Shown piece after piece: positions 18,757 through 54,032 of a stretch of DNA of 64,000 bases (its first letter is position 1; the number at the start of each line of letters is the position of its first letter). The stretch comes from an uncultured Gammaproteobacteria bacterium (GTDB lineage: Bacteria > Patescibacteriota > Patescibacteriia > SG8-24). Location of the stretch: positions 277,841-341,840 of the forward strand of contig CAZBFO010000002.1 of NCBI GenBank assembly GCA_964491475.1. Reading direction: 5' to 3'. The translations under genes were made by a program, and so were the position numbers. The notes under the pieces were generated by a model. The model searched no databases. It saw nothing but the letters and a program-made list of their open reading frames with translations, and was not told where the DNA came from.

Positions 18757-18778
18757 GGTCGGCGCGGAAAGGCTTTTT

Positions 18779-21335: not shown

Positions 21336-21370
21336 ATCGCCGTCGCCCCTAGCGCGACGGCGATTTTTTT
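21336..21370 (+). terminator. Rho-independent terminator after adhesin A
   Basis: An 11-bp stem ATCGCCGTCGC/GCGACGGCGAT followed by TTTTTTT. Confidence 0.7.
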
Positions 21371-21378
21371 GCTATAAT
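21370..21378 (+). promoter_or_regulatory. Extended -10 element TGCTATAAT (consensus), giving a near-leaderless transcript
   Basis: Directly follows the terminator T-run. The ATG at 21390 is 12 nt downstream. Confidence 0.5.
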
Positions 21379-21389
21379 TCAAGCAGATT

Positions 21390-22436
21390 ATGAGCTATAA
21401 GAAGTTCCAGACGTATTTCTTCATCGCTCTGCTGTCCGGCAGCCTTTTGCTGACATTGGCCGTTTTCCAGTCCTACCTGGTGCTGTTGGCTTTCGGCGGC
21501 GTTTTCGCCATCCTTGCCCGTCCGCTGTTCCTGCGTTTCGAGCGCTACCTCAAGTCCGAAACGGCCGCCGCATTCCTGACCATCACGGTCGTGGCCAGCC
21601 TGATCTTCGTGCCAACGGCACTGTTCGTGGCGCAGCTCACCGACGAATTGGGTCGGCTGTTCTCGAACATCAAGGGGTATCTGGACTACCAGGCGGTCAA
21701 CGCCCTGCTGGACAAGTACGTGCCCGCACAATTTCACGCCCAGGTTCCGGCGATGATGCAGGAGGGCGCCCGGCTGGTCAGCGCCCTGGCGCAGACGCTC
21801 TCAAGCAACCTGCTGGCGTTCTTCTCCAACCTGTTCGGCATGGTCTTCGGCCTGCTGGTGGTGGTCATTTCCGCTTACTACCTGCTGAAGGACGGCACCA
21901 AGATCAAGAAGGAGCTGCTGGTGCTTTCGCCTCTGGGCGACAACCATGACGAGCAGGTGTTTCGCCGCGTCGTCACGGCCGTCCGGGCGGTGTTCCTTGG
22001 GACACTCATCGTCGGTGCCGCCAAGGGCGTGCTTTCGGGAATCGCCTTCTGGCTGACGGGCCTTCCGGCACCGCTGTTTTGGGGAACCATGACCGGTTTG
22101 GCGTCGTTCGTCCCGATGGTCGGTTCGGCCATCGTGACGGTGCCCGCCGTGCTGTATCTCGTCGCCATCGGCAAGGTTAACGCCGCGATCGTCCTGTCGG
22201 TCGTGTCCATTGCGGTCATCGGCACCATCGACAACTTCATCCAGCCGAAGTTCGTGGAAAGCAAGACCAGCATCCATCCTTTGCTTGTGCTGCTGTCCAT
22301 TTTGGGGGGCATGCAGTTCTACGGGTTCGCCGGCTTCATCCTGGGTCCGCTGACCCTGGCCGTGTCGATGGCGCTGCTGGAAATCTACAAGAAGGAGTTC
22401 CGGCGCGGGCTCGACGGGGACGAAAAAGCGGAATGA
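21390..22436 (+). CDS. AI-2E family transporter (PerM/YhhT, UPF0118)
   Basis: Eight-TM topology and the conserved C-terminal core GLPAPLFWGTMTGLASFVPMVGSAIV...IDNFIQPKF. Confidence 0.85.
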   Translation: MSYKKFQTYFFIALLSGSLLLTLAVFQSYLVLLAFGGVFAILARPLFLRFERYLKSETAAAFLTITVVASLIFVPTALFVAQLTDELGRLFSNIKGYLDYQAVNALLDKYVPAQFHAQVPAMMQEGARLVSALAQTLSSNLLAFFSNLFGMVFGLLVVVISAYYLLKDGTKIKKELLVLSPLGDNHDEQVFRRVVTAVRAVFLGTLIVGAAKGVLSGIAFWLTGLPAPLFWGTMTGLASFVPMVGSAIVTVPAVLYLVAIGKVNAAIVLSVVSIAVIGTIDNFIQPKFVESKTSIHPLLVLLSILGGMQFYGFAGFILGPLTLAVSMALLEIYKKEFRRGLDGDEKAE

Positions 22437-26895: not shown

Positions 26896-27501
26896 ATGAG
26901 AACAGGTCCATTGGTGGCATTCACGGCAGCGCTGGCGGTCGGCTGCGTTGCGTCACGGCCGCCGCAGACGGCGAAAAAGCCGGCACCGTCAGTGCCCGTT
27001 CTGGCAGCGACTGCGCCGGAGGCACGACCGGACGCGGTGCCGCAGGCGGCGGCGGTGGCCAGTGAGGCGTTGGAGATGTCGTACTCGCTTCCCGACGCGG
27101 AAGACTGGACGGAGGGCGACCGCCGCGCGGTCGGCTTCGACGGCTGGACGCCGGATGCGGTCATCCGCAACGAGAAGCTGGGCGCGACCATCGTCTTTGC
27201 CGGCTATCCGCGGAACCTCGGTTCGACGCTCGACGTCGCCGACTCGCTGCGCGCCAAGTTCGCGGCTTCCTCGGCCGTGATGGCCGAGGCGACCGGCCGT
27301 TTCGCTTTCTTCGCCTTCTGCAAGAAGCGCACCAAGGGCGAATCCGAAAGGACCTGCGGCAAGGTCTACGTGGTGCGGCCCGGCGGGGATGGCGGCCAGT
27401 ACGTGCTCATCGTAGGCATCTGGCCGGAATCGTCCGGCGCGGATGCCGCCAGGGACGTCGATGCGGTCGCGCGAAGCTTTTCCGCGACCCACGCGCAGTA
27501 G
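26896..27501 (+). CDS. Hypothetical lipoprotein
   Basis: MRTGPLVAFTAALAVGC lipobox. An AAAGGAG RBS precedes the ATG and a bidirectional terminator follows. Confidence 0.55.
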   Translation: MRTGPLVAFTAALAVGCVASRPPQTAKKPAPSVPVLAATAPEARPDAVPQAAAVASEALEMSYSLPDAEDWTEGDRRAVGFDGWTPDAVIRNEKLGATIVFAGYPRNLGSTLDVADSLRAKFAASSAVMAEATGRFAFFAFCKKRTKGESERTCGKVYVVRPGGDGGQYVLIVGIWPESSGADAARDVDAVARSFSATHAQ

Positions 27502-27512
27502 CGCGGACAGTC

Positions 27513-27546
27513 AAAAAACCTCCGACGATGTCGGAGGTTCTTTATT
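27513..27546. terminator. Bidirectional terminator between the lipoprotein and dus genes
   Basis: AAAAAA, CCTCCGAC-GAT-GTCGGAGG, then TTCTTTATT. Confidence 0.6.
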
Positions 27547-28561
27547 ATGTCGCGCAGCTGGCTTCGAGCGCGGGTTCGCGGACGGCAGTCGCGGACCCGT
27601 ATCCGGCCAAGTACTCGTCCATTACGGCATGCAGTTCGGGCAGCGTGGAAATTTTCATCATCTTGTCGCGGAGCGCCTTGGCGCCGGGCTGGCCCTTGAA
27701 GTACCAGGTGAGGTGCTTGCGGAAGCTGACCAGCTGGCCGCCGTACAGCTCGGCGTGCAAGATGCCGTGGTCGCGGACCGTGGCGATGCGCTCGGTCATG
27801 GTCGGCGCGACGATCGGTTTGCCGGCCAGCGCGGCTTCGATCTGCGGGAAGATCCAGGGGTTGCCCAGCGCGCCGCGGGCGATGAGCAGGCCGTCGCAGC
27901 CGGACTCGGCCAGCGCCTTGGGCGCCAGGTCGGCGGTATGCACGTCGCCATTGCACAGCACCGGAACGGACACGTTGGCGGCGGCGCGTCCGACCATCTT
28001 CCAGTCGGCGACGCCGGAGTAGCCTTGCGCCTTGGTGCGGCCGTGGATGGTGACCAGCGCTGCGCCGGCGTCCTCGATGACCTTGATGAACTCCAGGCAT
28101 TCCGTCGGATCGGACCAGCCGAGGCGGATCTTCACGGACACCGGCTTGTCGGTGGCGGCCTTCATCGCCTTGATGATGGCCGTGGCCAGCACGGGGTCTT
28201 TCATCAGCGCGGCGCCGTTGAAGTTGGAGACGATCTTGTAGACGGGGCAGCCCATGTTGATGTCGAAGCCGTCGGGGGAGTAGGCCTCGTCGATCATGCG
28301 GGTGGCTTCGGCCATCGAGGCGGGATCGGCGCCGAACAGCTGCTGCACGATCGGCCGCTCTTCCTCGACGAACCGGCCCATTTCCATCGACTTCTGGCTG
28401 CCGTGCACAAGCCCTTCGGCGGAGATCATCTCGCGGAAAACGATCGGCGCGGCGTAGCGCTTGGCGATGCGGCAAAAAGCCGAGTCGGTCATGTCGGCCA
28501 TGGGGGAGAGCGCGATGATCGGTTTTCGCATTTGAGACCAGTCAAACATAGCTCGCAGCAT
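27545..28561 (-). CDS. dus: tRNA-dihydrouridine synthase (Dus family, FMN TIM barrel)
   Basis: IIALSPMADMTDSAFCRIAKRY...DINMGCPVYKIV...VKIRLGW matches Dus. Start chosen at MLRAMFDW; an ATG 30 nt further downstream is equally possible. The ORF extends back to 28660. Confidence 0.8.
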   Translation of the reverse strand: MLRAMFDWSQMRKPIIALSPMADMTDSAFCRIAKRYAAPIVFREMISAEGLVHGSQKSMEMGRFVEEERPIVQQLFGADPASMAEATRMIDEAYSPDGFDINMGCPVYKIVSNFNGAALMKDPVLATAIIKAMKAATDKPVSVKIRLGWSDPTECLEFIKVIEDAGAALVTIHGRTKAQGYSGVADWKMVGRAAANVSVPVLCNGDVHTADLAPKALAESGCDGLLIARGALGNPWIFPQIEAALAGKPIVAPTMTERIATVRDHGILHAELYGGQLVSFRKHLTWYFKGQPGAKALRDKMMKISTLPELHAVMDEYLAGYGSATAVREPALEASCAT

Positions 28562-28665
28562 AGCGGAAAAACGGCTCCATGGCAAGAGGGGAGCGTGTCG
28601 GTTGTTTCGCCTTCCTAAATAAACTGAAGTCTGATAGGATAGCCCTGTTCTCCCTCGCAATCATT

Positions 28666-31035: not shown

Positions 31036-32283
31036 ATGCCGCAGATTTTCGCCGACGTGAAATACTCGCTGCACGCGCTTGCGGCCGCCAAGAGCCGCAC
31101 GATCTTGACGATGCTCGGCATCATCATCGGAGTGATGTCGGTGCTGGCGGTGTCGTCGGTAGGGCAGTCGGCGCAGCAGCTCATCTTGGGGCAGGTCACC
31201 TCGCTCGGCACCAACCTCGTGGGCGTGCTGCCGGGCGCCAGCCAGGAAAACGGCCCGCCGCCCATCGCCTTCGGCATCGTCACCAAGACGCTGACCCGCG
31301 AGGACGTCGCGGCCATCGGCCAGATTCCCGACGTCGTCGCCGCCTCGTCGTACGTGCGCGATTCCGACGCCGTTTCCAATCGCGAGAACTCCGTCACCAC
31401 CACCATCCAGGGCGTCGACGAGACGTATCCGAACGTCGAGAATTTCTCGTTGGCCGAGGGCGACAGGGGCGGCCGGTTCTTCGGCGCGCAGGACCTGGCG
31501 TCGTTCGCCCGCGTGACCGTGCTGGGCCATACCGTGGCGCAGAAGCTGTTCGGCGACGCCAATCCCGTGGGGCAGAACGTACGGGTCAAGGACATCGCCT
31601 TCGAGGTCGTGGGCGTGGCCGCCAAGCGCGGCTCGGCCGCTTTCCAGGATCAGGACGATCAGATATTCGTGCCGGCCACGACGGCACAGCGCCTGCTGCT
31701 GGGCATCGACTACGTCACCTTCGCGCGCCTCAAGGTGGACGACGCCGGCCACATCGACGCGGTCAAGCAGGACATCAAGCGCCTGCTGCTCCGCCGTCAT
31801 CACATCAACGACCCCGACAGGGCCGACTTCGGCGTGCGCAGCACGGACACGGCCATCAGCATCCTCGGCGGCGTCACCGGCGCCATCAAGGGGTTCCTGC
31901 TGGCGGTCACGGCCATCTCGCTGCTGGTCGGCGGCATCAACATCATGAACATCATGTACGTGGCCGTGCGCGAGCGCACCCGCGAGATCGGCCTGCGGAA
32001 GGCGCTCGGCGCCCGCCGCAGCCGCATCCTGTCGCAGTTCCTGATCGAAAGCGCCGTGGTCTCGGTGCTCGGCGGGATGCTCGGCGTGCTCTTGGGCGTC
32101 GGCGTCATCGGCCTGGTTGCCCTGGCGGTGCGGCATGCGGGCTATTCCTGGCAGTTCATCCTGCCCGTCTCCGGGCTGCTCGCCTCGTTGGGCATCTCGG
32201 TGGGCATCGGCCTGGTCTTCGGGATGGCTCCGGCCGTTTCCGCCTCGCGCCTCGAGGCCATCGAGGCGCTCCGCTACGAATAG
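31036..32283 (+). CDS. ABC transporter permease, FtsX/MacB-type (copy 1)
   Basis: An N-terminal TM helix, a large periplasmic domain and a C-terminal FtsX four-TM bundle (ISLLVGGINIMNIMYVAVRERTREIGLRKALGA). Confidence 0.85.
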   Translation: MPQIFADVKYSLHALAAAKSRTILTMLGIIIGVMSVLAVSSVGQSAQQLILGQVTSLGTNLVGVLPGASQENGPPPIAFGIVTKTLTREDVAAIGQIPDVVAASSYVRDSDAVSNRENSVTTTIQGVDETYPNVENFSLAEGDRGGRFFGAQDLASFARVTVLGHTVAQKLFGDANPVGQNVRVKDIAFEVVGVAAKRGSAAFQDQDDQIFVPATTAQRLLLGIDYVTFARLKVDDAGHIDAVKQDIKRLLLRRHHINDPDRADFGVRSTDTAISILGGVTGAIKGFLLAVTAISLLVGGINIMNIMYVAVRERTREIGLRKALGARRSRILSQFLIESAVVSVLGGMLGVLLGVGVIGLVALAVRHAGYSWQFILPVSGLLASLGISVGIGLVFGMAPAVSASRLEAIEALRYE

Positions 32284-32286: not shown

Positions 32287-33540
32287 ATGAAACTCTGGGA
32301 CTCCTTCAAGACAGCATCTCGTAACATGCGCCGGAGCAAGCTCCGGACCGCCTTGTCGCTGCTCGGCATGGTGGTCGGCGTGTTCGCCGTGACGCTGATC
32401 GTCTCGCTGGGCCTGGGACTGAAGGGGTACGTGGTCGGGCAGATTTCGCAGTTCGGCACGGACTTCCTGGCCATCCATGCGATCGTCCCCGGCGTCGGCC
32501 AGCGCGGTTCCATCGGCACCGGCACCATCGGCGTGCCGGCCACGTCTTTGCGCAACGACGACCTGGCGCTGCTGAACGACGCCTCGACCTTCCCGTACCT
32601 GACTGCCGCCGTCGGCATGCGCACCGCCTACGAAGTGGCGTCGAACGGCAACAAGGACCTGCGTATCTTCGTGAACGGCACCAATGCCGCCTATCCGACC
32701 GTCGATCCCCAGACGGTCGCGGAGAACGGCCGGTTCTTCAACGACGACGAGGACCGATCGCTGGCTTCGGTCATCGTGCTCGGCAAGACCGTGGCCTCGC
32801 GGCTGTTCGGCGATGCCGACCCCGTCGGCGAAAAGGTCCGCGTGAAGGACGTCAGCCTCACGGTCGTCGGCGTGCTCAAGAAGCGCGGCTCGTTCGGACC
32901 GTTCGACCTGGACCAAATGGTGTTCGTGCCGCTGGGCGTGGTCGAGAAGCGCATCGCCCACGTCGACTACCTGCAGGAGATCGACCTGAAAGTGAAGGAC
33001 CAGTCGTACCTGCCGGCTGCCGTCGACGACATCACCCGCGTGCTGCGCCGCCGCCACGGCATCTCCGATCCCGGCAAGGACGACTTCCAGGTGACCACCG
33101 CCACCGACGTGCTCGAACAGGTGAACACCGTGACCACGGCCATCACCTGGCTGCTCGGTTTCCTCGCCGCCATCTCGCTGCTGGTCGGCGGCATCGGCAT
33201 CATGAACATCATGCTGGTATCGGTGACCGAGCGCATCCGCGAAGTCGGCCTGCGCAAGGCAGTCGGCGCCAGGCGCGGCGACATCATGACCCAGTTCCTG
33301 GCCGAGTCGGTGCTGCTGACCTTCGTCGGCGGCATCACCGGCGGACTTCTGGCGATGCTGGCCACCGTCGGCCTGGTTGCGGCGGCGCGTCATGTGGGCC
33401 TGTCGGTACCCTATGTCGTCTCGCTTCCGGCTTTCGTCATCGCGGCGGTCGTGTCCGCGGCCATCGGCATCGTCTTCGGCATCTACCCCGCGCGAAAGGC
33501 CGCCGGCCTCGATCCGATCGTGGCGCTGCGTTTCGAATAG
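32287..33540 (+). CDS. ABC transporter permease, FtsX/MacB-type (copy 2)
   Basis: Paralogous to the previous permease (ISLLVGGIGIMNIMLVSVTERIREVGLRKAVGA). Confidence 0.85.
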   Translation: MKLWDSFKTASRNMRRSKLRTALSLLGMVVGVFAVTLIVSLGLGLKGYVVGQISQFGTDFLAIHAIVPGVGQRGSIGTGTIGVPATSLRNDDLALLNDASTFPYLTAAVGMRTAYEVASNGNKDLRIFVNGTNAAYPTVDPQTVAENGRFFNDDEDRSLASVIVLGKTVASRLFGDADPVGEKVRVKDVSLTVVGVLKKRGSFGPFDLDQMVFVPLGVVEKRIAHVDYLQEIDLKVKDQSYLPAAVDDITRVLRRRHGISDPGKDDFQVTTATDVLEQVNTVTTAITWLLGFLAAISLLVGGIGIMNIMLVSVTERIREVGLRKAVGARRGDIMTQFLAESVLLTFVGGITGGLLAMLATVGLVAAARHVGLSVPYVVSLPAFVIAAVVSAAIGIVFGIYPARKAAGLDPIVALRFE

Positions 33541-38829: not shown

Positions 38830-38850
38830 CGCCCGTGCTTGGACGGGAAG

Positions 38851-38859
38851 TGCTATACT
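38851..38859 (+). promoter_or_regulatory. Extended -10 element TGCTATACT for giant surface protein C
   Basis: The ATG at 38869 is 10 nt downstream. Confidence 0.45.
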
Positions 38860-38868
38860 TTTCGCGGT

Positions 38869-41800
38869 ATGCCAGCCAAAAAGACCCGGTCGCGAAAATC
38901 GTCCAAACCGTCGGCGGAGCACGGCGACTCCGTCCTGTTGCGATTGGCCGTCGGGGCGGTCCTGCTGGGCATGGTCTGGGCCGCAGTTCCGCTGGCGAAA
39001 GCGCTGACCACCACCATCACTTCCGTCGTCGATCAGGCGTTTTCGGCGGCGGTGACCGCGCCGTCGTCAGGCTCGACCATCAGCGGAACGGTGCCGTTGG
39101 AGGCGCGGGTCGCGGCTGCGGCGAGTTCGGGGATATTCACGCTTTCCGGCGGTCCGAACGGTTTGCAACAGCCCATACAGGGCACGCAAGACGCTTCGGA
39201 CGCGCTGAAGTGGACGGCCAAGCTTGATGCTTCCGTGCTTGTTGCCGGCACCTATGCCCTGGGATTTTCCGCCGTGCGCGCCGTCGACGGGCTGACAGCC
39301 AGTTCGCCGCAGATTTCCCTGATCGTCGCCGATCAGGCGCCGGCCAAGTACGTCATCACCTTCGTGTCGCCCAGATCGGGCTCAACGGTATCCGGCACTG
39401 TCGCGCTCACGGCCGGCGTGAACCTGGCAGCTGACTCGCTGACCTACGTCGTCACGCCCGTAGCCGGCGGGGGATTGGTAGAGTTGAAGTCGTCTTTTGA
39501 CGGCACGAACGGCACTTGGGTCGGCAGCTGGAATACCGCCGAATTTCCGAATGGCACCTATACCGTGGTGCCCCACGCCTTTCACGCCGCCGTGATGGAA
39601 GTGGGCGACCCCGTTACCTTGACCGTCAGCAATGCCGCTCCGCCTCCGACCTTCACCGCGACCGTGCGGACGCCCGCCTCGGGCAGCGCGCTGAAGGGCA
39701 TCGTGACGTTCAGCTCCGTCACCAACCTGGCCGCCACCGGCCTTGCCTATGTCGTGACCGATGCCGGCGGCGCGCCTGTCGCTTCGCTGAACGCCGCTCC
39801 TTCTAACGGCAGCCTGCAATGGGACGCGACTTGGGACACGACGGCAGTATCCAACGGCACCTATTCGCTCAAGGCCACCTCGATCCGTACGGGCGCGCAG
39901 GCGGAGGCCGGCCCGGTTTCCTTCACGATCGCCAACCAGGCCGCGTCGACGTTATTGACCGTCCTGATGGCCGCGCCGGCCAAGGGCGCGGTGGTCTCTG
40001 GCAGCGTGCAGGTGTACGCGCAGACTTCCCTGGCGGCAGACAGCCTTTCCTTCACCATCACCCAGACTTTCGGCAGCAAGCACGTCACGCAGCTTGCGGC
40101 GGCAGGAGGTCCGACCTCCTGGTATGCCGCCTGGGATTCTTCGGCATTGGAGCCGGGGGCCTACCTCATTCACGCCACGGCCCTGAAGGGCACGGGAACG
40201 AACGTGAGCGACGACGTCGCTTTCAGCGTCACGGCGCCGTCCGCCGGATCGCCGACGCCGGTCTCCGCTGCCGTCAACGTCACGGTGCCGGTTTCGGGCG
40301 CGACGGTCGCCGGTCAGATGAGCCTGGCTGCGCGCACGGACTCCGCCGTGGACCTCGCCGGGTTTGAGTTGCGCAACGCCGTCGCGCCGGACGCGGCGCC
40401 TGTCGCCACGGTGGCTGCCAGCGGAGCCGACGGCGGTACCTCGTGGACGGCGACGATGAACACTACCGCCATTCCCGACGGCGAATACGTGGTGGTGGCC
40501 GTCGTGACCCGCAACGGCGTGAAAGCCTCCAGCGCGGCCGTTCCCGTGCATTTGAAGAATCTCACCAGCGGCCAGGCGGCCGTGCCCTCTTTTGAAATCC
40601 GATCGCCCGCGCCCGGCGCCTCGGTCTCCGGCATCGTGCCTTTCTACGCCTCATCCTCGGCCGCCATCGACGGGCTGGCCTTCATTCTTCAGGGGCCGAC
40701 AGTACCCGGCAGCAGGATGGCGTTGCCGGCTACCGGCAACGCCGAAAAGACCGCATGGACGGTCAATTGGAATTCCGGAACGGTGCCCGACGGCAGCGTC
40801 TCCCTGTCGGCCGTGGCTTCGAAATCGGGACATGAGTCCGAGGGGGCGCCGCGCGCGTTCACGGTCGCCAACGGCGCTTCGGCCCCGGTGCAGCCTCCTC
40901 CGACCGCCACCGCGCCTCCGGCAGCGGCCACGACCTTCAAGGTGACCGTGGTCAATCCGGTGACCGGACAGATTTACGCCGGACAAGTGCCATTGGCCGC
41001 CGCCGTCGACGGCGGCACCGCGCTGAACGTGCGGTTCACCGTCGGTGCCGCGAGCGGCGGTGCCGTGGCGGACATCGACGCGCATTTCGATTCGAAGACC
41101 AAGCGCTGGGTGGCGCTCTGGAAGCCAGACGCCGCCGCAACCGGCACTTACGTCGTGACGGCGACGGCCCAAAATACCAGAGGCCAGACGGCGCAAAGCG
41201 AAAGGGTCAAAGTGCTTTTCGGCGCTTCTAGGCCGGGGGAGCCAGCCGCGCCCGGATCGCCGCCGTCGCCGCCGGAGGTGCCGAAGCCCGTCGTTTCGGG
41301 AGAAAAAGCGGCGCTCATCGTGAAAATCTCCTCGCCTGTCGCTTCGTCGGTATTGCGCGGACCGGCGGTACTTGCCGCAGACGCAGAGGGCGCGGCTGAA
41401 GTCGGTTTCGCCATCCGCCCGATCAAAGAAGGGGAGGCGACGACTCGACGCGCGGCCAGCGACGGAACGCGCTGGGTCGCTTATCTCGACACCACGGCAA
41501 TTCCTGACGGCGATTACGAAATCGAAGCTTCGGCCGTCGACGCCGCCGGCAATCGCGCGGTCTCGCAGCGTCTGCCTTTCGGCGTGCGCAACGCGGGCGG
41601 CGGGGCGCCCGTGAGCAGGGTGGACGTCGTGCCTCCCGCGGCAGTAGTCGCTTCGGTGCTCGAACGGCCGCAAGGATCCGTCTCGCTTTCCGCCGATCCG
41701 CTGCCGCAGTCCGTTTCGGACGCGACCGACCAGCTCAATGCCGACTGCATCGCCAGGAAAGTTCCCGCCGAGAGGTGTTCCGAATGGTTGGCTCGGCAGT

Positions 41801-42900
41801 CGGAGCGGCAGGAATGCGCGGCCGCCGGCATCGTCACCAAGGAAGAGTGCCTTGCCTATCTGAAATCCAAGCGCGGCGGACAGGTGGCAGCCTGCGAAGG
41901 CCGCACCGACGAAGACTGCGCCAAAGTCGTGGCCATCGCCACCGCCGACCTGATCTTTGACGCCGACCTGCGCGCTTTGCGCGACGCTGCCTTGCAGAAC
42001 GTGGGACGGGTGCTGCAAATGCCCCCGCGCGGCAAGCAGGCAGCAGGCGGCGGGGACATTCCTCCGGCGCCGCCCGGATTGGCAGACCTTTCGCCTTTCG
42101 CGGGAGAAGCGCCGGTGAACGTCGGCTTGCACGCCTCGCCCGGTTTCGGCACGACCGACGGCAACGTCGCCCATCAGAACCTGCCGGCCTTCGTAATGGT
42201 CGACACCGACGGTGACAACTTGCCGGACGACATCGAGCTCCGCCTGGGAACCGATCCGCGCAATCCCGATTCCGACGGCGACGGCTACAACGACGGCTTG
42301 GAAGTCGAACGCGGCTACAATCCGCTCGGTCCGGGGGCGCTTCTTGGGAACGTGACCTTGGCGCCGGTCGATCAGGCGGTCATCTCCGGCATTGCCATCG
42401 AGCAACCGACTGACGCGGGAACGGTCGCGCCTGACCTGAAGGTGGAGACGGCAGTCGCCCAAAAGGAAAAGGAAGGCACCTTCACCATCGGGGGCCGCGC
42501 CAAGCCGCACGACGTCGTGACGGTGTTCGTCTACAGCTACCTGCCGGTCGTGTTCACTACCGCCGCCAAGGACGACGGCACCTGGACCTACGATCTCGGA
42601 ACGGGCCTGGCCGACGGGCAGCACGAGGCCTACGCGACCGTGACCGACGACACGGGAAAGATTTCCGCCAAGAGCGAACCGCTGTCGTTCTTCGTCTCCG
42701 GCGCGAAGGCCGTGACGCAGGATGAATTCTTCAATCCCTCCTCGTCGCCGCTTTCCGCCGCGGCGGTGGCGGCACCCAGCCAGGCGCTGCTCGGCTGGTA
42801 CATCGGCGCAGTGGCGATGCTGATGGGCATCGCGCTGGTCGTCTCGTTCCTGCTGTTCATGCGGCCAAAAAAGAATCAGCCGCCTCCTCCGTCGCAATAG
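38869..42900 (+). CDS. Giant surface protein, paralog C (1343 aa). Domain order: signal/TM, about 9-10 tandem Ig-like domains, a Cys-rich module, TSP3-like Asp boxes, an Ig-like domain, a TM anchor and a Pro-rich tail.
   Basis: A repeated ~100-aa unit (P.SGS.VSGTV.L.A...L.YVVT...W....W.T....NGTY). The Cys module DCIARKVPAERCSEWL...ECAAAGIVTKEECLAYLKSKRGGQVAACEGRTDEDC is homologous to paralog A. DTDGDNLPDDIELRLGTDPRNPDSDGDGYNDG. TM helix WYIGAVAMLMGIALVVSFLLF followed by KKNQPPPPSQ. Confidence 0.8.
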   Translation: MPAKKTRSRKSSKPSAEHGDSVLLRLAVGAVLLGMVWAAVPLAKALTTTITSVVDQAFSAAVTAPSSGSTISGTVPLEARVAAAASSGIFTLSGGPNGLQQPIQGTQDASDALKWTAKLDASVLVAGTYALGFSAVRAVDGLTASSPQISLIVADQAPAKYVITFVSPRSGSTVSGTVALTAGVNLAADSLTYVVTPVAGGGLVELKSSFDGTNGTWVGSWNTAEFPNGTYTVVPHAFHAAVMEVGDPVTLTVSNAAPPPTFTATVRTPASGSALKGIVTFSSVTNLAATGLAYVVTDAGGAPVASLNAAPSNGSLQWDATWDTTAVSNGTYSLKATSIRTGAQAEAGPVSFTIANQAASTLLTVLMAAPAKGAVVSGSVQVYAQTSLAADSLSFTITQTFGSKHVTQLAAAGGPTSWYAAWDSSALEPGAYLIHATALKGTGTNVSDDVAFSVTAPSAGSPTPVSAAVNVTVPVSGATVAGQMSLAARTDSAVDLAGFELRNAVAPDAAPVATVAASGADGGTSWTATMNTTAIPDGEYVVVAVVTRNGVKASSAAVPVHLKNLTSGQAAVPSFEIRSPAPGASVSGIVPFYASSSAAIDGLAFILQGPTVPGSRMALPATGNAEKTAWTVNWNSGTVPDGSVSLSAVASKSGHESEGAPRAFTVANGASAPVQPPPTATAPPAAATTFKVTVVNPVTGQIYAGQVPLAAAVDGGTALNVRFTVGAASGGAVADIDAHFDSKTKRWVALWKPDAAATGTYVVTATAQNTRGQTAQSERVKVLFGASRPGEPAAPGSPPSPPEVPKPVVSGEKAALIVKISSPVASSVLRGPAVLAADAEGAAEVGFAIRPIKEGEATTRRAASDGTRWVAYLDTTAIPDGDYEIEASAVDAAGNRAVSQRLPFGVRNAGGGAPVSRVDVVPPAAVVASVLERPQGSVSLSADPLPQSVSDATDQLNADCIARKVPAERCSEWLARQSERQECAAAGIVTKEECLAYLKSKRGGQVAACEGRTDEDCAKVVAIATADLIFDADLRALRDAALQNVGRVLQMPPRGKQAAGGGDIPPAPPGLADLSPFAGEAPVNVGLHASPGFGTTDGNVAHQNLPAFVMVDTDGDNLPDDIELRLGTDPRNPDSDGDGYNDGLEVERGYNPLGPGALLGNVTLAPVDQAVISGIAIEQPTDAGTVAPDLKVETAVAQKEKEGTFTIGGRAKPHDVVTVFVYSYLPVVFTTAAKDDGTWTYDLGTGLADGQHEAYATVTDDTGKISAKSEPLSFFVSGAKAVTQDEFFNPSSSPLSAAAVAAPSQALLGWYIGAVAMLMGIALVVSFLLFMRPKKNQPPPPSQ
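39050..41270 (+). repeat. About 9-10 tandem ~100-aa Ig-like (Big-like) domain repeats (protein level) in surface protein C
   Basis: Recurrent SGSTVSGTV.L.A....AADSLTYVVT...W.A.WDT.A.PNGTY... units. The nucleotide sequences have diverged. Confidence 0.55.
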
Positions 42901-45221: not shown

Positions 45222-46403
45222 ATGAAGAAGTTCCTCTTCCTGCTGCTGGTGGCCGGCGGATCGGTGTTCGCCTACTTTTGGTACGTGAGGGGGATAAATC
45301 TTCTGCAGATGGAGGATGCCAACCCGCTGCCCTACTACGGCATCGCCATGCGTCTTCCTCCAAAGCAGGCCGACGGCAAGCGCGCCGCTACCGTCAATGT
45401 CGACGCCTATCAGTGGTATGCAGCCGCGTCGATGCTGAAGCCGAGGGTCAGCGCGGCGGTGGCGGCGATCGATTCGCATGTGTACGTCATGGGCGGCGTC
45501 GACGGTTTCGACCGCACTCTGGCTGACGTCGAAATGTACGACACCAAGAGCGACACTTGGACCAAGCTGCATCCGATGCCGCGCGCCACCGAGGACGCGG
45601 CCGTTGCTGTGGTCGACGGCAAGATCTACGTTTTCGGGGGGTTCCAGGGCTTGGCGGACAATCCCCTCGACAGCCTGCTGGTGTACGATCCGTCCACGGA
45701 CGAATGGAAGCAGGGACATGATCTGCCGGCCGCCGTCGGCGGCGCCGCGGCCGTGGCGGTCGACGGAAAGATTCACCTGTTCGGCGGCAAGTCGCTCGGC
45801 ACGGACGTGGACACCCACTCCGTCTATGACCCTGCGACCGACGGCTGGGAGAACTCCCTCGAGATGAACGTGGGGCGCGAGCGCGCCGACGCCCTGCTGG
45901 TCGGCCGTAAAATTTACCTTGTCGGCGGACGCCAGGGATCCTTGGTGTACAACCTGGATTCGGTCGAGGTGTATGACATCGACCGCAACACTTGGGACAC
46001 GGTCAGCCTGATGCCGCGCAAGCGGAGCAATCACGTCGCCCTGCTGTTCCAAGGGAAGATTTACGTCTTCGGCGGCGAGGCGCCGACATTGACCTTTGGG
46101 GACGTCGACGTCTATGACGTCGCCGCAAACCGCTGGTCGACCATGAAGACGACGCTGCCGCATCCGCGCTACGGGCTTGGCGGCGCGGTGGTGGACGGCA
46201 AGTTCTTCCTGGTGGGCGGCGGCCAGCGGCCCGGCCTGTCCGTATCCGATTTCAACGAGGTGTTCGCCCCGCCGGCCGCTGGACTCGCTGCGGAAACCGC
46301 TCCCGCGCCTGCGCCGACCAACGTGAACGCGCCCGCGTCCAAGCCGGCCACGACAAAGAAGAAGCCCGCGACCGCTCCCAAAACGACCGCCCCCGCCCCA
46401 TGA
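45222..46403 (+). CDS. Kelch-repeat beta-propeller protein, membrane anchored
   Basis: N-terminal TM helix. Six Kelch blades (YVMGG, YVFGG, HLFGGK, YLVGG, YVFGG, FLVGGG). A-P-T-rich tail. Confidence 0.8.
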   Translation: MKKFLFLLLVAGGSVFAYFWYVRGINLLQMEDANPLPYYGIAMRLPPKQADGKRAATVNVDAYQWYAAASMLKPRVSAAVAAIDSHVYVMGGVDGFDRTLADVEMYDTKSDTWTKLHPMPRATEDAAVAVVDGKIYVFGGFQGLADNPLDSLLVYDPSTDEWKQGHDLPAAVGGAAAVAVDGKIHLFGGKSLGTDVDTHSVYDPATDGWENSLEMNVGRERADALLVGRKIYLVGGRQGSLVYNLDSVEVYDIDRNTWDTVSLMPRKRSNHVALLFQGKIYVFGGEAPTLTFGDVDVYDVAANRWSTMKTTLPHPRYGLGGAVVDGKFFLVGGGQRPGLSVSDFNEVFAPPAAGLAAETAPAPAPTNVNAPASKPATTKKKPATAPKTTAPAP

Positions 46404-47644
46404 ACGCGCTGACCGTTTCCCAATTCGTCGAGTTCCTGAACACCGCCCTGGCCACGGCGGTGTTTCCTGAAGGCGCCGTGATCGAAGGCGAGGTCGTGGA
46501 ATACCGCATGTCCCAAGGCAAGTGGATCTGGTTCAAGCTGAAGGACGAGTCCGCCGTGGTGGACTGCTTCGCCACCGTCTGGCAGCTGCGGACGCCGCTG
46601 GAAGACGGCATGAAAGTGCGCGCCTACGGCATGCCCAAGGTGCACCCGAAGAGCGGCAAGTTCTCCGTGAACGTGGAACGGGTGGAGCTGGTGGGCGAGG
46701 GAGCCCTTCGCCGCGCTTTCGAGCTGCTCAAGAAGAAGCTGGAAGCCGAAGGCCTGTTCAGCGCCGCGCGCAAGCGCCTGTTGCCGCGCTTCCCGCGCAA
46801 GATCGGCCTTATCGCTTCTGCCGAATCCGCGGCGTACGGGGACTTCATGCGCATTCTCGGCAACCGCTGGGGCGGGTTGGAAATCGCCCTGGCCGACGTG
46901 TCGGTGCAGGGCCGCGATGCCGTGGCCGAAATCACCTCGGCTTTCCGCTGGTTCAACGCCCATCCTGACGCGGCCGAAGTGCTGGTGCTGACCCGCGGCG
47001 GCGGCTCGATGGAGGACCTGCAGGCGTTCAACTCCGAAGAAGTGGCCCGTGCGGTGTTCTCGTCGCTGCTTCCCGTCATCGTCGGCGTCGGTCACGAGCG
47101 CGACGAGTCCCTGGCCGACTATGCCGCCGACGTCCGCGCCTCCACGCCGTCCAACGCCGCCGAGCGGCTGGTCCCGGATCGCCGGGACATCCTGTCGTTC
47201 ATCGACGGGGGAGTGCGCCGGATGGATGCCGGCATGCGCGGCGCGCTCGTCGGAAAGCAAGACGCCATCGAGTCCCTCGCCGGCAGAATCGAAGCCCACG
47301 CCCGCCGCGGCATCGACCGGTTCCGTCACCTCCTCAAGGATTTCGCCAACCGCTTCACCGGTTTCGAGGCGTCGTTCAGAGAGCGGGCAACCGCCATCCT
47401 GACGTTGAACGCCAGATTGGCGACCGGCGCCAAATACTGGATGTCGCATCTCACGCAGGAACTCGAGTCCCGGGAGCGCCTGCTGAAGTCGATGGACCCC
47501 AACCGACCGCTGCAGTTGGGTTACGCCCTGGTGAGGGGTCCCGACGGTCTTGTCACCGACGCTTCCAAAATAGAAATCGGCACCAAGGTGGAAATCGCGT
47601 TGAGAAGGGGAACTCTCGAAACCGAAGTGGTAGGAAAGAAGTAA
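46400..47644 (+). CDS. xseA: Exodeoxyribonuclease VII large subunit
   Basis: N-terminal OB-fold (LTVSQFVEFLNTALATAVFP...VEGEVVEYR...GKWIWFKLKDE) and a catalytic core (IGLIASAESAAYGDF...LTRGGGSMEDL). An ATGA overlap with the Kelch gene stop. Confidence 0.9.
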   Translation: MNALTVSQFVEFLNTALATAVFPEGAVIEGEVVEYRMSQGKWIWFKLKDESAVVDCFATVWQLRTPLEDGMKVRAYGMPKVHPKSGKFSVNVERVELVGEGALRRAFELLKKKLEAEGLFSAARKRLLPRFPRKIGLIASAESAAYGDFMRILGNRWGGLEIALADVSVQGRDAVAEITSAFRWFNAHPDAAEVLVLTRGGGSMEDLQAFNSEEVARAVFSSLLPVIVGVGHERDESLADYAADVRASTPSNAAERLVPDRRDILSFIDGGVRRMDAGMRGALVGKQDAIESLAGRIEAHARRGIDRFRHLLKDFANRFTGFEASFRERATAILTLNARLATGAKYWMSHLTQELESRERLLKSMDPNRPLQLGYALVRGPDGLVTDASKIEIGTKVEIALRRGTLETEVVGKK

Positions 47645-47802
47645 CGTCTTGCGCATATCGAACCGGGGGTGGCAGGGGGTGGGGGACCCCGTCAGCGCGG
47701 AGGTCGCCCGCAGGCGACCGAGCACTGCCGGGGGTGACCCCCTGACAGGACCCCCGGCCCGCATGGCAGCAACATCCTTATAAGTGATTAACTTGGTATC
47801 GC
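47645..47802 (+). other. Structured GC-rich spacer between xseA and xseB (G5/C5 runs, alternative hairpins, possible G-quadruplex)
   Basis: G5 runs at about 47664-47684 (GGGGGTGGCAGGGGGTGGGGGACCCC). Hairpin GGTCGCC-CGCA-GGCGACC. The overlapping hairpins GCCGGGGG...CCCCCGGC and GGGGG-TGA-CCCCC are mutually exclusive. xseA/xseB are usually contiguous or overlapping. Confidence 0.45.
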
Positions 47803-48060
47803 ATGTCACCCAAATCCAAAGGAGAAAAATCCCCCGAAGGTTTCGACTTCGGCAAGTCCTACAAGGAGCTGGAAGAGATCGTCGACTGGTTCGAACAGGA
47901 AGAAGTCGATCTTGACGAGGGCCTCAAGAAGTTCGAGCGCGGCCTGCAGCTCGCCAAGGCCTGCAAATCGCGCCTCAAGGAGGTCGAGAACAAGGTCACG
48001 CAGATCAAGGCCAAGTTCGGCGAGCTGGAAGACGACAGGGAACAGTCCTCGCTCATCTAG
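47803..48060 (+). CDS. xseB: Exodeoxyribonuclease VII small subunit
   Basis: FDFGKSYKELEEIVDWFEQEEVDLDEGLKKFERGLQLAKACKSRLKEVENKV is a typical XseB helical hairpin. Confidence 0.85.
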   Translation: MSPKSKGEKSPEGFDFGKSYKELEEIVDWFEQEEVDLDEGLKKFERGLQLAKACKSRLKEVENKVTQIKAKFGELEDDREQSSLI

Positions 48061-48091
48061 CGGGCCGCCTCTCGTCAGGGGGTCGCTTTTG

Positions 48092-48100
48092 TGCTATACT
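48092..48100 (+). promoter_or_regulatory. Extended -10 element TGCTATACT
   Basis: The ATG at 48110 is 10 nt downstream. Confidence 0.45.
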
Positions 48101-48109
48101 GAAACGGAT

Positions 48110-48868
48110 ATGAAGACCGCCGTGGGCAAAGCTACGTTTTTGAGGCTGCTGGGCATAGTCGCCGGTTCCATGGTTTTCGCCATGGCCGTCCCCGTCGCTT
48201 ATGACCCCTCCGCATTCAACATGCTTTTGCCGGTGGCGATTTTTACCGCCGCCCTGCTGGCGATAATGATCGTCAATGCCGCCGACCGCCGCGAAAAGCT
48301 GATGGAGGCCGTCCGTCTGGAGCTCAACAAGCTTCGCCGCATCTACCATCTCTCCAAGAACATCGCCGAGAACAACGGCAAGTACCGCACCTGGTTCACC
48401 GACATGCACGGTTTCATCTACGGCTACCTGTCGGGGTTTTCGGGCAAGGACTTTTCGGCTTACGACAAGTTCAACGGCGGTTTCCGCAAGGTCAGCTATC
48501 ATATCTACACCATCCCCGACATGGACACCCGCAAGTGCGAGGTGCTCTTCCAGGACTTGCTCCACACCGCGGGTACGGTCGCCGAGGCGCGCCAGCAGAT
48601 CAAGGAGCTGTGGGATAACCGCATGTCGGCGTTCGGCTGGACGGTCGTCGGACTTTCTTCGCTGGGATACGTCGTAGCCACGATTTTCGCCATGGACGAC
48701 TGCCTGCAATGCAGGATAGTCAGCGGCATCTCCATCGCCGCGATGCTCCTGGCCCTCGATTACCTCCGTGATACCGATACCCTCTCGGGCGAAAAGAAGG
48801 CCTTGGCGGAGCGCTATGTGGCTAACGTCGGACGCCTTGAGCTGGGCCGCAGGCACGAGGAAGAATAA
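48110..48868 (+). CDS. Hypothetical membrane protein
   Basis: Two N-terminal TM helices and two C-terminal TM helices. The ATG lies 10 nt after a TGCTATACT extended -10. No recognised domain. Confidence 0.5.
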   Translation: MKTAVGKATFLRLLGIVAGSMVFAMAVPVAYDPSAFNMLLPVAIFTAALLAIMIVNAADRREKLMEAVRLELNKLRRIYHLSKNIAENNGKYRTWFTDMHGFIYGYLSGFSGKDFSAYDKFNGGFRKVSYHIYTIPDMDTRKCEVLFQDLLHTAGTVAEARQQIKELWDNRMSAFGWTVVGLSSLGYVVATIFAMDDCLQCRIVSGISIAAMLLALDYLRDTDTLSGEKKALAERYVANVGRLELGRRHEEE

Positions 48869-48871
48869 ACT

Positions 48872-49021
48872 ATGAAAAATCACGCGGGCGGAAACCGAAA
48901 GTCGGGACCGGGCTACCGCACGCCCAGCACTTTCCGTTTCGAGGTCCAGCGCCGGACCCGCAATCAGCAGGTGAAGAACAAATATTCCAACGACAATCAT
49001 CCGTTCACCAAGAAAGCCTGA
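48872..49021 (+). CDS. Small (49 aa) basic hypothetical protein
   Basis: An AGGAAG RBS lies 7 nt upstream. GC3 is about 70%. A strong rho-independent terminator follows immediately. This ORF is below the cutoff of the supplied ORF track. Confidence 0.35.
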   Translation: MKNHAGGNRKSGPGYRTPSTFRFEVQRRTRNQQVKNKYSNDNHPFTKKA

Positions 49022-49046
49022 TGAGGACATCGTCAGTCTTTTTTTA
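49015..49046 (+). terminator. Rho-independent terminator after the 49-aa ORF
   Basis: CTGATGA-GGACA-TCGTCAG (7 bp, one G-U pair) followed by TCTTTTTTT. Confidence 0.55.
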
Positions 49047-49060
49047 ACGCCCACCGCACT

Positions 49061-49753
49061 ATGCCACGCTCGCACGAAACCGTCGTCCTTTCCCTCGGCG
49101 GCTCGCTGATCGCCCCCAGGGAGGGGATAGACGTGGCGTTCCTGAAGGCCTTCGGGAACTTGGTGCGCCGCCACGTCAAGAAGGGCCGGCGCTTCGTGAT
49201 CATCTGCGGCGGCGGCACCACCGCACGCAACTACCAGGGCGCGGCAGAGAAGGTCACCAAGCTCACTCGCGACGATTTGGACTGGCTGGGCATCCATGCC
49301 ACGCGCCTCAATGCGCACCTGCTGCGCACGGTGTTCCGCAACCTGGCCCATCCGCGCATCATCACCGACCCGCACGAGGACATGGCTTCGCGCCGGCCGG
49401 TCATCATCGGCGCAGGCTGGCGTCCGGGCTGCTCGACCGACTACGATGCGGTGCTCCTGGCCAAGCGCTACGACGCCACGCGACTCATCAACCTTTCAAA
49501 CATCGCCTACGTCTACGACAAGGACCCCCGCAAGCATGCCGACGCCGTTGCCCTGCCGTCGCTCACTTGGAAGGAGTTCCGCAAGCGCTTCGGTTCGCGC
49601 TGGCACCCGGGACTCAACAGCCCCTTCGACCCCGTAGCCTCGAAGGAAGCCGAACGTATCGGCTTGACCGTGGTCATCGCAGAGGGCCGTGACATCGCCA
49701 ACCTGGATCGGATGCTGGAAGGGAAGCCGTTCAAGGGGACGATGGTCGGCTGA
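49061..49753 (+). CDS. pyrH: UMP kinase, archaeal-type (amino-acid kinase family)
   Basis: VVLSLGGSLI...VIICGGGTTARNY...IIGAGWRPGCSTDYDAVLLAKR resembles archaeal PyrH rather than the bacterial KYKRILLKLSGE type. Confidence 0.7.
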   Translation: MPRSHETVVLSLGGSLIAPREGIDVAFLKAFGNLVRRHVKKGRRFVIICGGGTTARNYQGAAEKVTKLTRDDLDWLGIHATRLNAHLLRTVFRNLAHPRIITDPHEDMASRRPVIIGAGWRPGCSTDYDAVLLAKRYDATRLINLSNIAYVYDKDPRKHADAVALPSLTWKEFRKRFGSRWHPGLNSPFDPVASKEAERIGLTVVIAEGRDIANLDRMLEGKPFKGTMVG

Positions 49754-52820: not shown

Positions 52821-52852
52821 AAAGACCGCTCGCAAGGGGCGGTCTTTTTTTG
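52821..52852 (+). terminator. Rho-independent terminator after rplL
   Basis: AGACCGC-TCGCAAGGG-GCGGTCT followed by TTTTTTT. Confidence 0.7.
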
Positions 52853-52870: not shown

Positions 52871-53035
52871 GCCAGCGGCGCAGCCGCGAGGCGGCCCCGC
52901 CCGCAGGGGTACAGAATATTTTTTAGCCTGCGGGCCAAAAAATTTCCTCTACCTCGCGCGAAATCCGGCTGCGGCCGGATTTCGCGCTGCGGTAAGCCCC
53001 CTGCGGGCGGGGCCGCCTCGCGGCTGCGCCGCTGG
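52871..53035. repeat. MITE-like nested palindromic element with perfect 39-bp terminal inverted repeats enclosing two internal hairpins
   Basis: Left arm 52871-52909 (GCCAGCGGCGCAGCCGCGAGGCGGCCCCGCCCGCAGGGG) is the exact reverse complement of right arm 52997-53035. The 87-nt core holds ATTTTTT-AGCCTGCGGGCC-AAAAAAT and a 14-bp stem GCGCGAAATCCGGC-TGCG-GCCGGATTTCGCGC. Confidence 0.6.
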
Positions 53036-53128
53036 CGTGGCAGATGCAGGGGCTCAAATTGACCGGGCTGGCGGACGTGGTACTGTTGCGGCGTTGTTCA
53101 TTTCGTTACACGAAAAAGAGGTGCGACG

Positions 53129-53980: not shown

Positions 53981-53985
53981 CGCAG

Positions 53986-54024
53986 AACGAAAGGACCGGC
54001 TCTTGTGAGCCGGTCCGTTTTCAT
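53986..54024. terminator. Bidirectional terminator
   Basis: GGACCGGCTC-TTGT-GAGCCGGTCC, a perfect 10-bp stem, flanked by AACGAAA on one side and GTTTTCATT on the other. Confidence 0.7.
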
Positions 54025-54032
54025 TCCGCGGC

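What the first reader, a model, noticed from the sequence alone, without database searches (positions are those of the whole stretch)
47645..47802. 158-nt G-run/C-run structured spacer inserted between xseA and xseB
xseA and xseB usually overlap or abut; here they are separated by 158 nt with no ORF. The spacer contains four G5 runs within 25 nt (GGGGGTGGCAGGGGGTGGGGGACCCC; G-quadruplex potential on the coding strand). It has a clean 7-bp hairpin (GGTCGCC-CGCA-GGCGACC). Two mutually exclusive hairpins compete for the same G5 run (GGGGG-TGA-CCCCC versus GCCGGGGG...CCCCCGGC), the hallmark of an RNA switch or attenuator. The CCCGCAGGC core recurs in the MITE-like element and in the spacer at 10531. 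It could be a small regulatory RNA, a REP-like insertion or a translational-coupling disruptor controlling ExoVII subunit stoichiometry.
Basis: seen in the sequence. Interest (0 to 1): 0.5.

Follow-up and report, generated by a model that had tools for sequence, protein, structure and literature searches.

The report
Lineage-specific hairpin insert between xseA and xseB
The 158-base gap between the two exonuclease VII genes is real and folds into one long hairpin, but the closest relatives lack it, so it is most likely a recent, ordinary palindromic insertion rather than a conserved RNA switch.

Summary
The gap is real. xseA (46400-47644) and xseB (47803-48060) are separated by 158 nt with no credible ORF. 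Bases 47649-47772 fold into one nested, imperfect hairpin of 44 bp.

The structure is only moderately above background on the mRNA strand (z about -2.5). It is stronger on the opposite strand (z -6.3).

It is not conserved:
- The three closest orthologous loci have spacers of 67, 34 and 15 nt.
- The window carries a private 92-nt block (47647-47738).
- Across 83 relatives the median spacer is 4 nt.
- There is no Rfam match, and no second copy in the 64-kb window or in about 1.2 Mb of related loci.

The proposed competing hairpins have about zero ensemble probability. Forcing them costs +8.6 and +11.6 kcal/mol. There is no canonical G-quadruplex motif: three G5 runs are clustered, not four. The shared CCCGCAGGC core is at chance level.

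Unrelated hairpins sit in the same gap in several other Patescibacteria lineages. Per junction this is not more frequent than at other co-directional junctions (8/68 vs 29/420, p = 0.21).

Best reading: a lineage-specific palindromic insertion inside the xseAB operon. At most it uncouples xseB translation or acts as an intercistronic mRNA hairpin. Interest is low.

The parts
46400..47644 (+). xseA (exonuclease VII large subunit, 414 aa). Its ATG overlaps the stop of the upstream Kelch-repeat gene by 4 nt.
   Evidence: Pfam PF02601 4.3e-72 and OB-fold PF13742. ORF list. 86% identical to L001 and L130 XseA.
47645..47802 (+). 158-nt non-coding xseA-xseB spacer
   Evidence: No Rfam family. No tRNA. 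No other copy in the window or in the loci.
47649..47772 (.). One long nested imperfect hairpin of 44 bp in five stacked helices: 47649-60/47760-72, 47663-70/47750-57, 47673-80/47737-44, 47687-98/47722-33, 47702-08/47713-19.
   Evidence: MFE -78 kcal/mol on the + strand, z -2.47. -89.5 kcal/mol on the - strand, z -6.33. DNA parameters give the same architecture, z -2.58. Pair probabilities are mostly above 0.9.
47647..47738 (.). 92-nt block present in the window but absent from the closest relative L001. It comprises the 5' arm plus the apex of the hairpin.
   Evidence: Pairwise and four-way alignments.
47739..47802 (+). 3' 64 nt of the spacer, shared with L001's 67-nt spacer. It holds the 3' arm of the outer stems plus the AT-rich xseB leader.
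   Evidence: Alignment. blastn 87% over 30 nt.
47665..47685 (+). Cluster of three G5 runs (GGGGG T GGCA GGGGG T GGGGG). A fourth G5 run lies at 47730-47734.
   Evidence: Pattern found once against 0.03 expected. No canonical G4 motif, and a two-tetrad G4 only in the G4-aware fold.
47702..47719 (.). Apical 7-bp stem with CGCA tetraloop (GGTCGCC CGCA GGCGACC)
   Evidence: I6. Pair probabilities 0.99-1.0. The same 18-mer in a phage contig is an unrelated terminator.
47773..47802 (+). AT-rich (37% GC), largely unpaired segment directly upstream of the xseB ATG. It has no Shine-Dalgarno-like motif. It contains TATAAG (47779-84) and GATTAA (47786-91).
   Evidence: GC content and upstream sequence. 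Weak pairing only. No two-hexamer sigma-70 match. L001 has GATAAT at the position aligned with GATTAA.
47803..48060 (+). xseB (exonuclease VII small subunit, 85 aa)
   Evidence: Pfam PF02609 8.4e-16. 78-80% identical to L001 and L130 XseB.
48067..48100 (+). Terminator-like hairpin plus T-run just after xseB. It overlaps a promoter-like site (TCGTCA-17-TATACT) for the next gene (ATG 48111).

Best explanation
The spacer is a lineage-specific, non-conserved palindromic insertion into an operon junction that is normally tight.

Shown:
- The ancestral xseA-xseB junction in this Patescibacteria (Uhrbacteria-like) clade is overlapping or very short.
- The lineage of the window and L001 carries a spacer of about 64 nt with an AT-rich end next to xseB.
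- The window alone has a further 92 nt. Together with the shared part these make a 124-nt imperfect hairpin.

Inferred:
- The 92 nt arose in one of two ways. Either a hairpin-forming element or an inverted duplication (template switching) was inserted in the window's lineage, or L001 deleted the 5' arm of an older palindrome.
- The block is carried passively on the xseA-xseB transcript.
- Its likely consequence is mechanical, not regulatory. A stable stem-loop 30 nt upstream of the xseB ATG, and 158 nt of distance, would abolish termination-reinitiation coupling.
- xseB would then be translated independently from the unstructured AT-rich leader without a Shine-Dalgarno motif, or from its own weak promoter there.
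- The hairpin could also act as a 3' barrier for the xseA message.
For: Not conserved:
- Spacers are 67 nt in L001 (XseA 86%), 34 nt in L130 (86%) and 15 nt in L131 (76%). L130 and L131 have the same downstream genes, as called in their contigs.
- The median over 83 relatives is 4 nt.

Orphan:
- No Rfam family.
- No second copy in 64 kb or in about 1.2 Mb of loci.

Single dominant fold:
- Pair probabilities exceed 0.9 for most of the 44 hairpin pairs. The alternative hairpins have P about 0.

General phenomenon:
- Unrelated hairpin spacers occur at the same junction in L002, L066, L015, L022, L026, L073 and L084. In L062 the spacer is only weakly structured.
- Every one of them has a nearest sampled relative with a different, in most cases much shorter, spacer. 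For example L002 has 85 nt and L063 has 7 nt at 81% identity.
- Per junction this is not more frequent than at other co-directional junctions: 8/68 vs 29/420, Fisher p = 0.21.

Local context:
- Another, much stronger palindromic element lies in the same window at 52871-53036 (z = -15).
- The hairpin has no T-tract, while this genome uses canonical T-tract terminators elsewhere.
- The xseB leader is 37% GC and has no Shine-Dalgarno-like motif in the window. By eye, none is seen in L001, L130 or L131 either (alignment).
- Only 12 of 41 genes have a Shine-Dalgarno-like motif, so initiation without one is normal here.
Against: - The outer stem pairs window-specific 5' sequence with 3' sequence that pre-exists in L001, and partly in L130. 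A simple insertion of a foreign element does not predict this. It requires either templated synthesis or a deletion in L001.
- Among spacers of 50 nt or more, xseA-xseB spacers are more often structured than other spacers (8/14 vs 29/149, p = 0.004). This could reflect selection for a hairpin here.
- The - strand folds markedly better than the + strand (6 G-U pairs against 2). Passive carriage does not explain this.
- Only 64 kb of a contig of about 386 kb could be searched, so a low-copy dispersed family is not excluded.
Confidence: 0.6

Rival explanations
1. Selected intercistronic regulatory hairpin. The stem-loop is kept because it sets the XseA:XseB ratio. It could protect the xseA 3' end, create an RNase III/E processing site, partially terminate transcription, or insulate an xseB-proximal promoter. 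On this reading several Patescibacteria lineages reached the same solution with unrelated sequences.
For: - Non-homologous hairpins occur in the same gap in at least 7 further lineages.
- Long xseA-xseB spacers are structured more often than other long spacers (8/14 vs 29/149, p = 0.004).
- The small subunit is needed in several-fold excess over the large one in the ExoVII complex (own knowledge, not tested here).
- An AT-rich segment with -10-like hexamers lies just downstream of the hairpin.
Against: - Per junction there is no enrichment (p = 0.21).
- Each hairpin is private to its lineage, and close relatives lack it.
- Most of the clade (60 of 83) does well with 30 nt or less.
- There is no T-tract and no two-hexamer promoter match.
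- The enrichment among long spacers is what one expects if the only way this junction becomes long is by hairpin insertion.
Confidence: 0.2
2. Member of a dispersed repeat family (REP/REPIN-, ERIC- or MITE-like) whose other copies lie outside the 64-kb window.
For: - It has the size and imperfect-palindrome architecture typical of such elements, and lies in a transcribed intergenic region.
- A second, unrelated long palindromic element lies in the window at 52871-53036.
Against: - No second copy in the window or in related loci.
- No similarity to the 52871 element.
- No direct repeat (target-site duplication) flanks the palindrome (left ...TAACGTC, right CATCCTT...).
- The 3' arm is shared with the orthologous spacer of L001, so it is not flanking-independent.
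Confidence: 0.1
3. The element functions on the opposite strand, as an antisense small RNA or a single-stranded DNA structure, because the - strand fold is much more stable.
For: - The - strand gives -89.5 kcal/mol, z = -6.33, with an MFE frequency of 0.20. The + strand gives -78 kcal/mol, z = -2.47, with a frequency of 0.02.
- It ranks third in the window on the - strand.
- Six G-U pairs form only on that strand.
Against: - There is no promoter-like site or terminator on the - strand around the spacer.
- All neighbouring genes are on the + strand.
- There is no conservation.
- A handful of A-C mismatches that become G-U pairs on the other strand can arise by chance in a single sequence.
Confidence: 0.05
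4. RNA switch or attenuator built on mutually exclusive hairpins, or a G-quadruplex/hairpin switch on the coding strand.
For: - The G5 and C5 runs can pair in several registers.
- The G-run cluster is improbable by chance.
- A G4-aware fold places a two-tetrad quadruplex in the 5' G-runs and lowers the energy by 3.9 kcal/mol.
Against: - The alternative hairpins have P about 0 and cost +8.6 and +11.6 kcal/mol.
- There is no canonical four-tract G4 motif.
- The G runs are paired with C runs at P about 1.0.
- There is no T-tract terminator or leader peptide.
- There is no Rfam family, and orthologues lack the sequence.
Confidence: 0.04

Closest known systems
ERIC/IRU and REP/BIME elements of enterobacteria (imperfect palindromes inserted in transcribed intergenic regions of operons)
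   Same: An imperfect palindrome of about 120 nt between co-transcribed genes. It is predicted to fold in the mRNA and is present or absent between close relatives. The plausible effect is on mRNA stability or processing and on coupling, not on sensing.
   Different: Those are multi-copy families with a recognisable consensus (own knowledge). Only one copy is seen here.
MITEs (for example Correia elements of Neisseria)
   Same: A short non-coding element with inverted-repeat architecture lying between genes.
   Different: There are no clean terminal inverted repeats and no target-site duplication. The arms are imperfect (no self reverse-complement blastn hit at E < 1e-3). Part of the 3' arm is orthologous spacer sequence. 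By contrast, the 52871-53036 element in the same window has perfect 39-bp arms.
Hairpins created by template switching during replication (Monttinen and Loytynoja 2022, PMC8794818; Loytynoja and Goldman 2017, PMC5453318)
   Same: New sequence is complementary to pre-existing neighbouring sequence. Several exact 8-9-nt inverted copies are present: CCGGGGGT and GCCGGGGGT against ACCCCCGGC, and CAGGGGGT against ACCCCCTG.
   Different: A single recent event would give perfect arms. Here the outer arms are clearly imperfect, with bulges and mismatches. With one informative outgroup, the direction (gain in the window or loss in L001) cannot be polarised.
Intrinsic (Rho-independent) terminators and attenuators
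   Same: A GC-rich stem-loop downstream of a stop codon.
   Different: No T/U tract follows the stem. The stem is far longer than usual. This genome has canonical T-tract terminators elsewhere. No alternative anti-terminator fold is populated.

Membership tests
Riboswitch / cis-regulatory RNA family (Rfam) | Match to a curated covariance model | tested here: not met
   No hit at gathering score in the window. Only E = 1.3 and E = 7.7 noise hits in 47550-47900.
Riboswitch / attenuator | Conservation of sequence and structure in orthologous leaders, with covariation | tested here: not met
   L001, L130 and L131 lack the 92-nt block or nearly the whole spacer. No homologue was found to align.
Riboswitch / attenuator | Two mutually exclusive, comparably stable folds, one of them a terminator or sequestrator | tested here: not met
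   The alternative hairpins have P about 0 and cost +8.6 and +11.6 kcal/mol. There is no T-tract terminator.
REP/REPIN, ERIC, MITE (dispersed palindromic repeats) | Multiple copies in the genome sharing a consensus | tested here: inconclusive
   There is a single copy in 64 kb and none in about 1.2 Mb of related loci. The rest of the contig of about 386 kb could not be read.
MITE | Terminal inverted repeats flanked by a target-site duplication | tested here: not met
   The flanks ...TAACGTC and CATCCTT... share no direct repeat. The arms are imperfect, with bulges and mismatches in the fold.
REP/REPIN | Associated RAYT (Y1 transposase) in the genome | not tested
   The window's ORFs were not screened for PF01797. 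The whole genome is not available.
Canonical G-quadruplex | Four G-tracts of at least 3 G separated by loops of 1-7 nt | tested here: not met
   The regex finds none on the + strand of the window. There are three G5 runs plus a GG, and the fourth run is 44 nt away.
Intrinsic terminator | GC-rich stem followed by a T/U tract | tested here: not met
   The scan of 46000-49500 lists no site in 47645-47802 on the + strand.
Exonuclease VII operon (xseA-xseB) | Both subunit genes are present, adjacent and co-directional | tested here: met
   Pfam PF02601 and PF02609. The same gene order is seen in relatives.

The most novel reading that the evidence does not exclude
In Patescibacteria the xseA-xseB junction may have been repeatedly and independently fitted with unrelated long hairpins. 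These would uncouple the two cistrons and tune the excess of the small subunit. That would be convergent evolution of an intercistronic structural 'valve', built from whatever palindromic DNA arises locally, perhaps by template switching. The window's G-run/C-run hairpin would be one instance.
Probability: 0.12. Interest if true: 0.5.

Novelty: new member of a known kind. Interest (0 to 1): 0.15.

Why it matters
As it stands, it matters little. It is an example of how fast intergenic palindromes come and go in the compact genomes of uncultured Patescibacteria, here inside an operon whose two genes normally overlap.

It is useful as a negative result. G-run/C-run complementarity in a 70% GC spacer looks like a switch by eye, but it resolves to one dominant hairpin and is not conserved.

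It would gain interest only if the recurrent, unrelated hairpins at this junction turned out to be selected for setting exonuclease VII subunit ratios.

Tried and rejected
- Exact-protein look-ups for the window's own XseA and XseB, and for P0001 (100% identical, on a contig of 385,998 nt), returned nothing. The rest of the source genome could therefore not be scanned for more copies.
- The first sliding-window fold scan timed out. It was rerun with 4 processes.
- An RNALfold-style filter (unbranched hairpins of at least 20 bp) was far too permissive in 63% GC DNA and was discarded. On energy per nucleotide, the + strand hairpin is not exceptional among coding regions.
- The first version of the gene-map script crashed. 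The final gene map is crude (ORF length and GC3), so the junction statistics are approximate.
- A viral-contig scan for the apical 18-mer gave one hit, which is an ordinary phage terminator (AAAAGGTCGCCCGCAGGCGACCTTACTT), so it is chance.
- A metagenome scan with XseA found no relative closer than about 70%. Closer ones came from the protein search and contig look-ups.
- Readings considered and rejected on the available evidence:
  - An integron attC site or a Xer/dif site. By eye there are no R'/R'' core motifs. This was not formally tested.
  - An assembly artefact. The 3' half is independently present in L001.
  - A small protein. The 44-aa TTG ORF lies in the hairpin, and most of it falls in the block missing from L001.
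  - A tRNA or tmRNA.

Full report
**What is there**

The window is a 63.5% GC genome fragment. Its closest relatives are metagenome-assembled Patescibacteria/CPR genomes, several labelled Candidatus Uhrbacteria.

xseA (46400-47644, 414 aa; Exonuc_VII_L 4.3e-72 plus OB fold) and xseB (47803-48060, 85 aa; Exonuc_VII_S 8.4e-16) are confirmed. They are separated by 158 nt (47645-47802).

The only ORF in the gap is a 44-aa TTG frame inside the GC-rich hairpin. Most of that frame falls in the 92 nt that L001 lacks.

xseA itself overlaps the upstream Kelch-repeat gene by 4 nt. So the operon is otherwise compact.

**Structure**

Bases 47649-47772 fold into a single nested, imperfect hairpin of 44 bp in five stacked helices. 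RNA and DNA parameters give the same architecture.

On the mRNA (+) strand:
- The energy is -78 kcal/mol.
- The z-score is only -2.47 against dinucleotide shuffles, and 5 of 200 shuffles fold as well.
- In a GC-corrected 140-nt sliding scan of the whole window it is the 11th distinct locus, at z = -2.7.

On the - strand:
- The energy is -89.5 kcal/mol and z = -6.33.
- It ranks third in the window.
- Six positions that are A-C mismatches on the + strand become G-U pairs.

The structure is therefore real but, on the coding strand, not far above what 70% GC sequence gives.

- G runs. There are three G5 runs within 21 nt (47665-47685). The fourth is 45 nt downstream. The cluster is improbable by chance, at 1 found against 0.03 expected.
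- G-quadruplex. The + strand has no canonical four-tract G4 motif. A G4-aware fold only adds a two-tetrad quadruplex worth 3.9 kcal/mol.
- Competing hairpins. The two 'mutually exclusive hairpins' exist as complementarities. Their ensemble probability is about 0. Enforcing them costs +8.6 and +11.6 kcal/mol. The promiscuous pairing is a by-product of repeated G5/C5 runs, not a populated switch.
- Shared core. CCCGCAGGC occurs three times against 1.9 expected, and 32% of shuffles do as well. blastn finds no similarity between the spacer and the 52871-53036 element.
- Other signals. No Rfam family matches at gathering or permissive thresholds. There is no tRNA. The spacer holds no two-hexamer sigma-70 site and no T-tract terminator.

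**Comparative evidence**

A genome-collection scan, a metagenome scan and a protein search followed by contig look-ups gave 131 related loci.

Among 83 loci with both genes, the median xseA-xseB spacer is 4 nt. 60 have 30 nt or less and 12 have 100 nt or more.

The three closest relatives have the following spacers:

| Locus | XseA identity to window | Spacer |
|---|---|---|
| L001 | 86% | 67 nt |
| L130 | 86% | 34 nt |
| L131 | 76% | 15 nt |

L130 and L131 show the same downstream synteny (bestrophin-like gene, then amino-acid kinase) in their called genes.

L001's spacer aligns with the 3' 64 nt of the window's spacer. The window has a private 92-nt block (47647-47738), which is the 5' arm plus the apex.

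With window, L001 and L130 nearly equidistant, I cannot polarise the event. There are two scenarios:
- The window gained 92 nt that are partly complementary to pre-existing sequence. This is the pattern expected from template switching (PMC8794818).
- L001 deleted the 5' half of an older palindrome.

**Is the junction special?**

Several other lineages carry long, strongly structured but mutually unrelated spacers at the same junction:

| Locus | Spacer |
|---|---|
| L002 | 85 nt |
| L066 | 123 nt |
| L015 | 142 nt |
| L022 | 163 nt |
| L026 | 111 nt |
| L073 | 62 nt |
| L084 | 77 nt |

L062 (109 nt) is only weakly structured.

None of these spacers is found elsewhere in about 1.2 Mb of loci. 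Each has a nearest sampled relative with a different, in most cases much shorter, spacer. For example L002 has 85 nt and L063 has 7 nt at 81% XseA identity.

Using a crude gene map:
- Structured spacers of 50-300 nt occur at 8 of 68 unique xseA-xseB junctions and at 29 of 420 other co-directional junctions (odds ratio 1.8, p = 0.21).
- Among long spacers only, xseA-xseB ones are structured more often (8/14 vs 29/149, p = 0.004).

I read this as follows. Hairpin-forming inserts are a general, fast-turnover feature of intergenic junctions in these genomes. A junction that is ancestrally overlapping becomes long essentially only when such an insert lands. A selected role is not excluded, and I give it 0.2.

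**Mechanism (inferred)**

The insert is most likely co-transcribed with xseA and xseB.

The xseB ATG has no Shine-Dalgarno-like motif in the window. By eye, none is seen in L001, L130 or L131 either (alignment). Such motifs are rare in this genome generally, at 12 of 41 genes.

With 158 nt and a 44-bp stem between stop and start, termination-reinitiation coupling is implausible. xseB would then initiate independently on the 30-nt, 37% GC, largely unpaired segment 47773-47802.

That segment contains -10-like hexamers (TATAAG 47779-84 and GATTAA 47786-91). L001 has GATAAT at the position aligned with GATTAA, 10 nt upstream of its ATG. Other genes in the window have TGnTATAAT-like boxes 10-11 nt upstream of their ATG. 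So a short-leader or leaderless xseB promoter shared by the window and L001 is possible, but it is unproven: the formal promoter scan found no match.

The hairpin lacks a T-tract, whereas this genome has canonical T-tract terminators. Efficient intrinsic termination is therefore unlikely.

**Verdict**

The spacer, the hairpin and the G-run cluster are real. The '4 x G5 in 25 nt', the competing hairpins and the shared core are not as described.

'REP-like insertion' and 'coupling disruptor' are reasonable. 'Switch or attenuator', 'G4' and 'conserved regulatory RNA' are not supported.

This is a new, single-copy instance of a known kind of thing, a lineage-specific intergenic palindrome. Interest is low.

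Noticed in passing
window 52871-53036: A 166-nt element with perfectly complementary 39-bp terminal arms and a second internal palindrome (52956-52987). It folds at -152.7 kcal/mol with z = -15. It sits just after a canonical T-tract terminator (52821-52850) and before the gene starting at 53129. It is by far the strongest structure in the window. It has no similarity to the xse spacer and no copy in any fetched locus.
   Followed up: partly
L002 4180-4264; L066 1016-1138; L062 2172-2280; L015 3695-3836; L022 1526-1688; L026 4207-4317; L073 11174-11235; L084 1227-1303: Unrelated, lineage-private spacers occupy the xseA-xseB gap in other Patescibacteria. Most are strongly hairpin-forming. L062 is only weakly structured. 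Some arms are built from short tandem units, for example GGTATTGAG-like x4 in L066 and GTACTGA/GTACGCA-like units in L062.
   Followed up: partly
window 21370-21392, 15663-15685, 48092-48113: Extended -10-like boxes (TGCTATAAT, TGGTATACT, TGCTATACT) end 10-11 nt upstream of ATG start codons. Only 12 of 41 crude gene starts have a Shine-Dalgarno-like motif. This suggests frequent leaderless or very short-leader mRNAs in this genome.
   Followed up: no
window 27453-27620: The second most stable 140-nt stretch of the window on both strands (z = -3.6 and -4.4). It lies where two predicted ORFs (26896-27501 and 27443-28618) overlap. The gene model there is uncertain.
   Followed up: no
window 53981-54032: A 52-nt spacer between convergent genes with a very strong fold (z = -6.0 on + and -10.2 on -). 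It is probably a bidirectional terminator.
   Followed up: no
window 31513-32048 vs 32770-33305: Direct repeats of 123 and 142 nt at 73-80% identity, spaced exactly 1257 nt apart. They indicate a tandem duplicated gene or domain (families D3, D4, D12, D17).
   Followed up: no
window 20422-20901 vs 42200-42583: Two distant stretches of 60-81 nt at 74-78% identity lie inside large ORFs (18735-21314 and 38839-42900). They are probably paralogous secreted-protein repeats (families D6, D13).
   Followed up: no
window 46169-47809 (- strand): A 546-aa GTG-initiated ORF runs antisense across all of xseA and the spacer. It is most likely a shadow ORF of high-GC DNA, since xseA has the Pfam match and GC3 of 0.84.
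   Followed up: no
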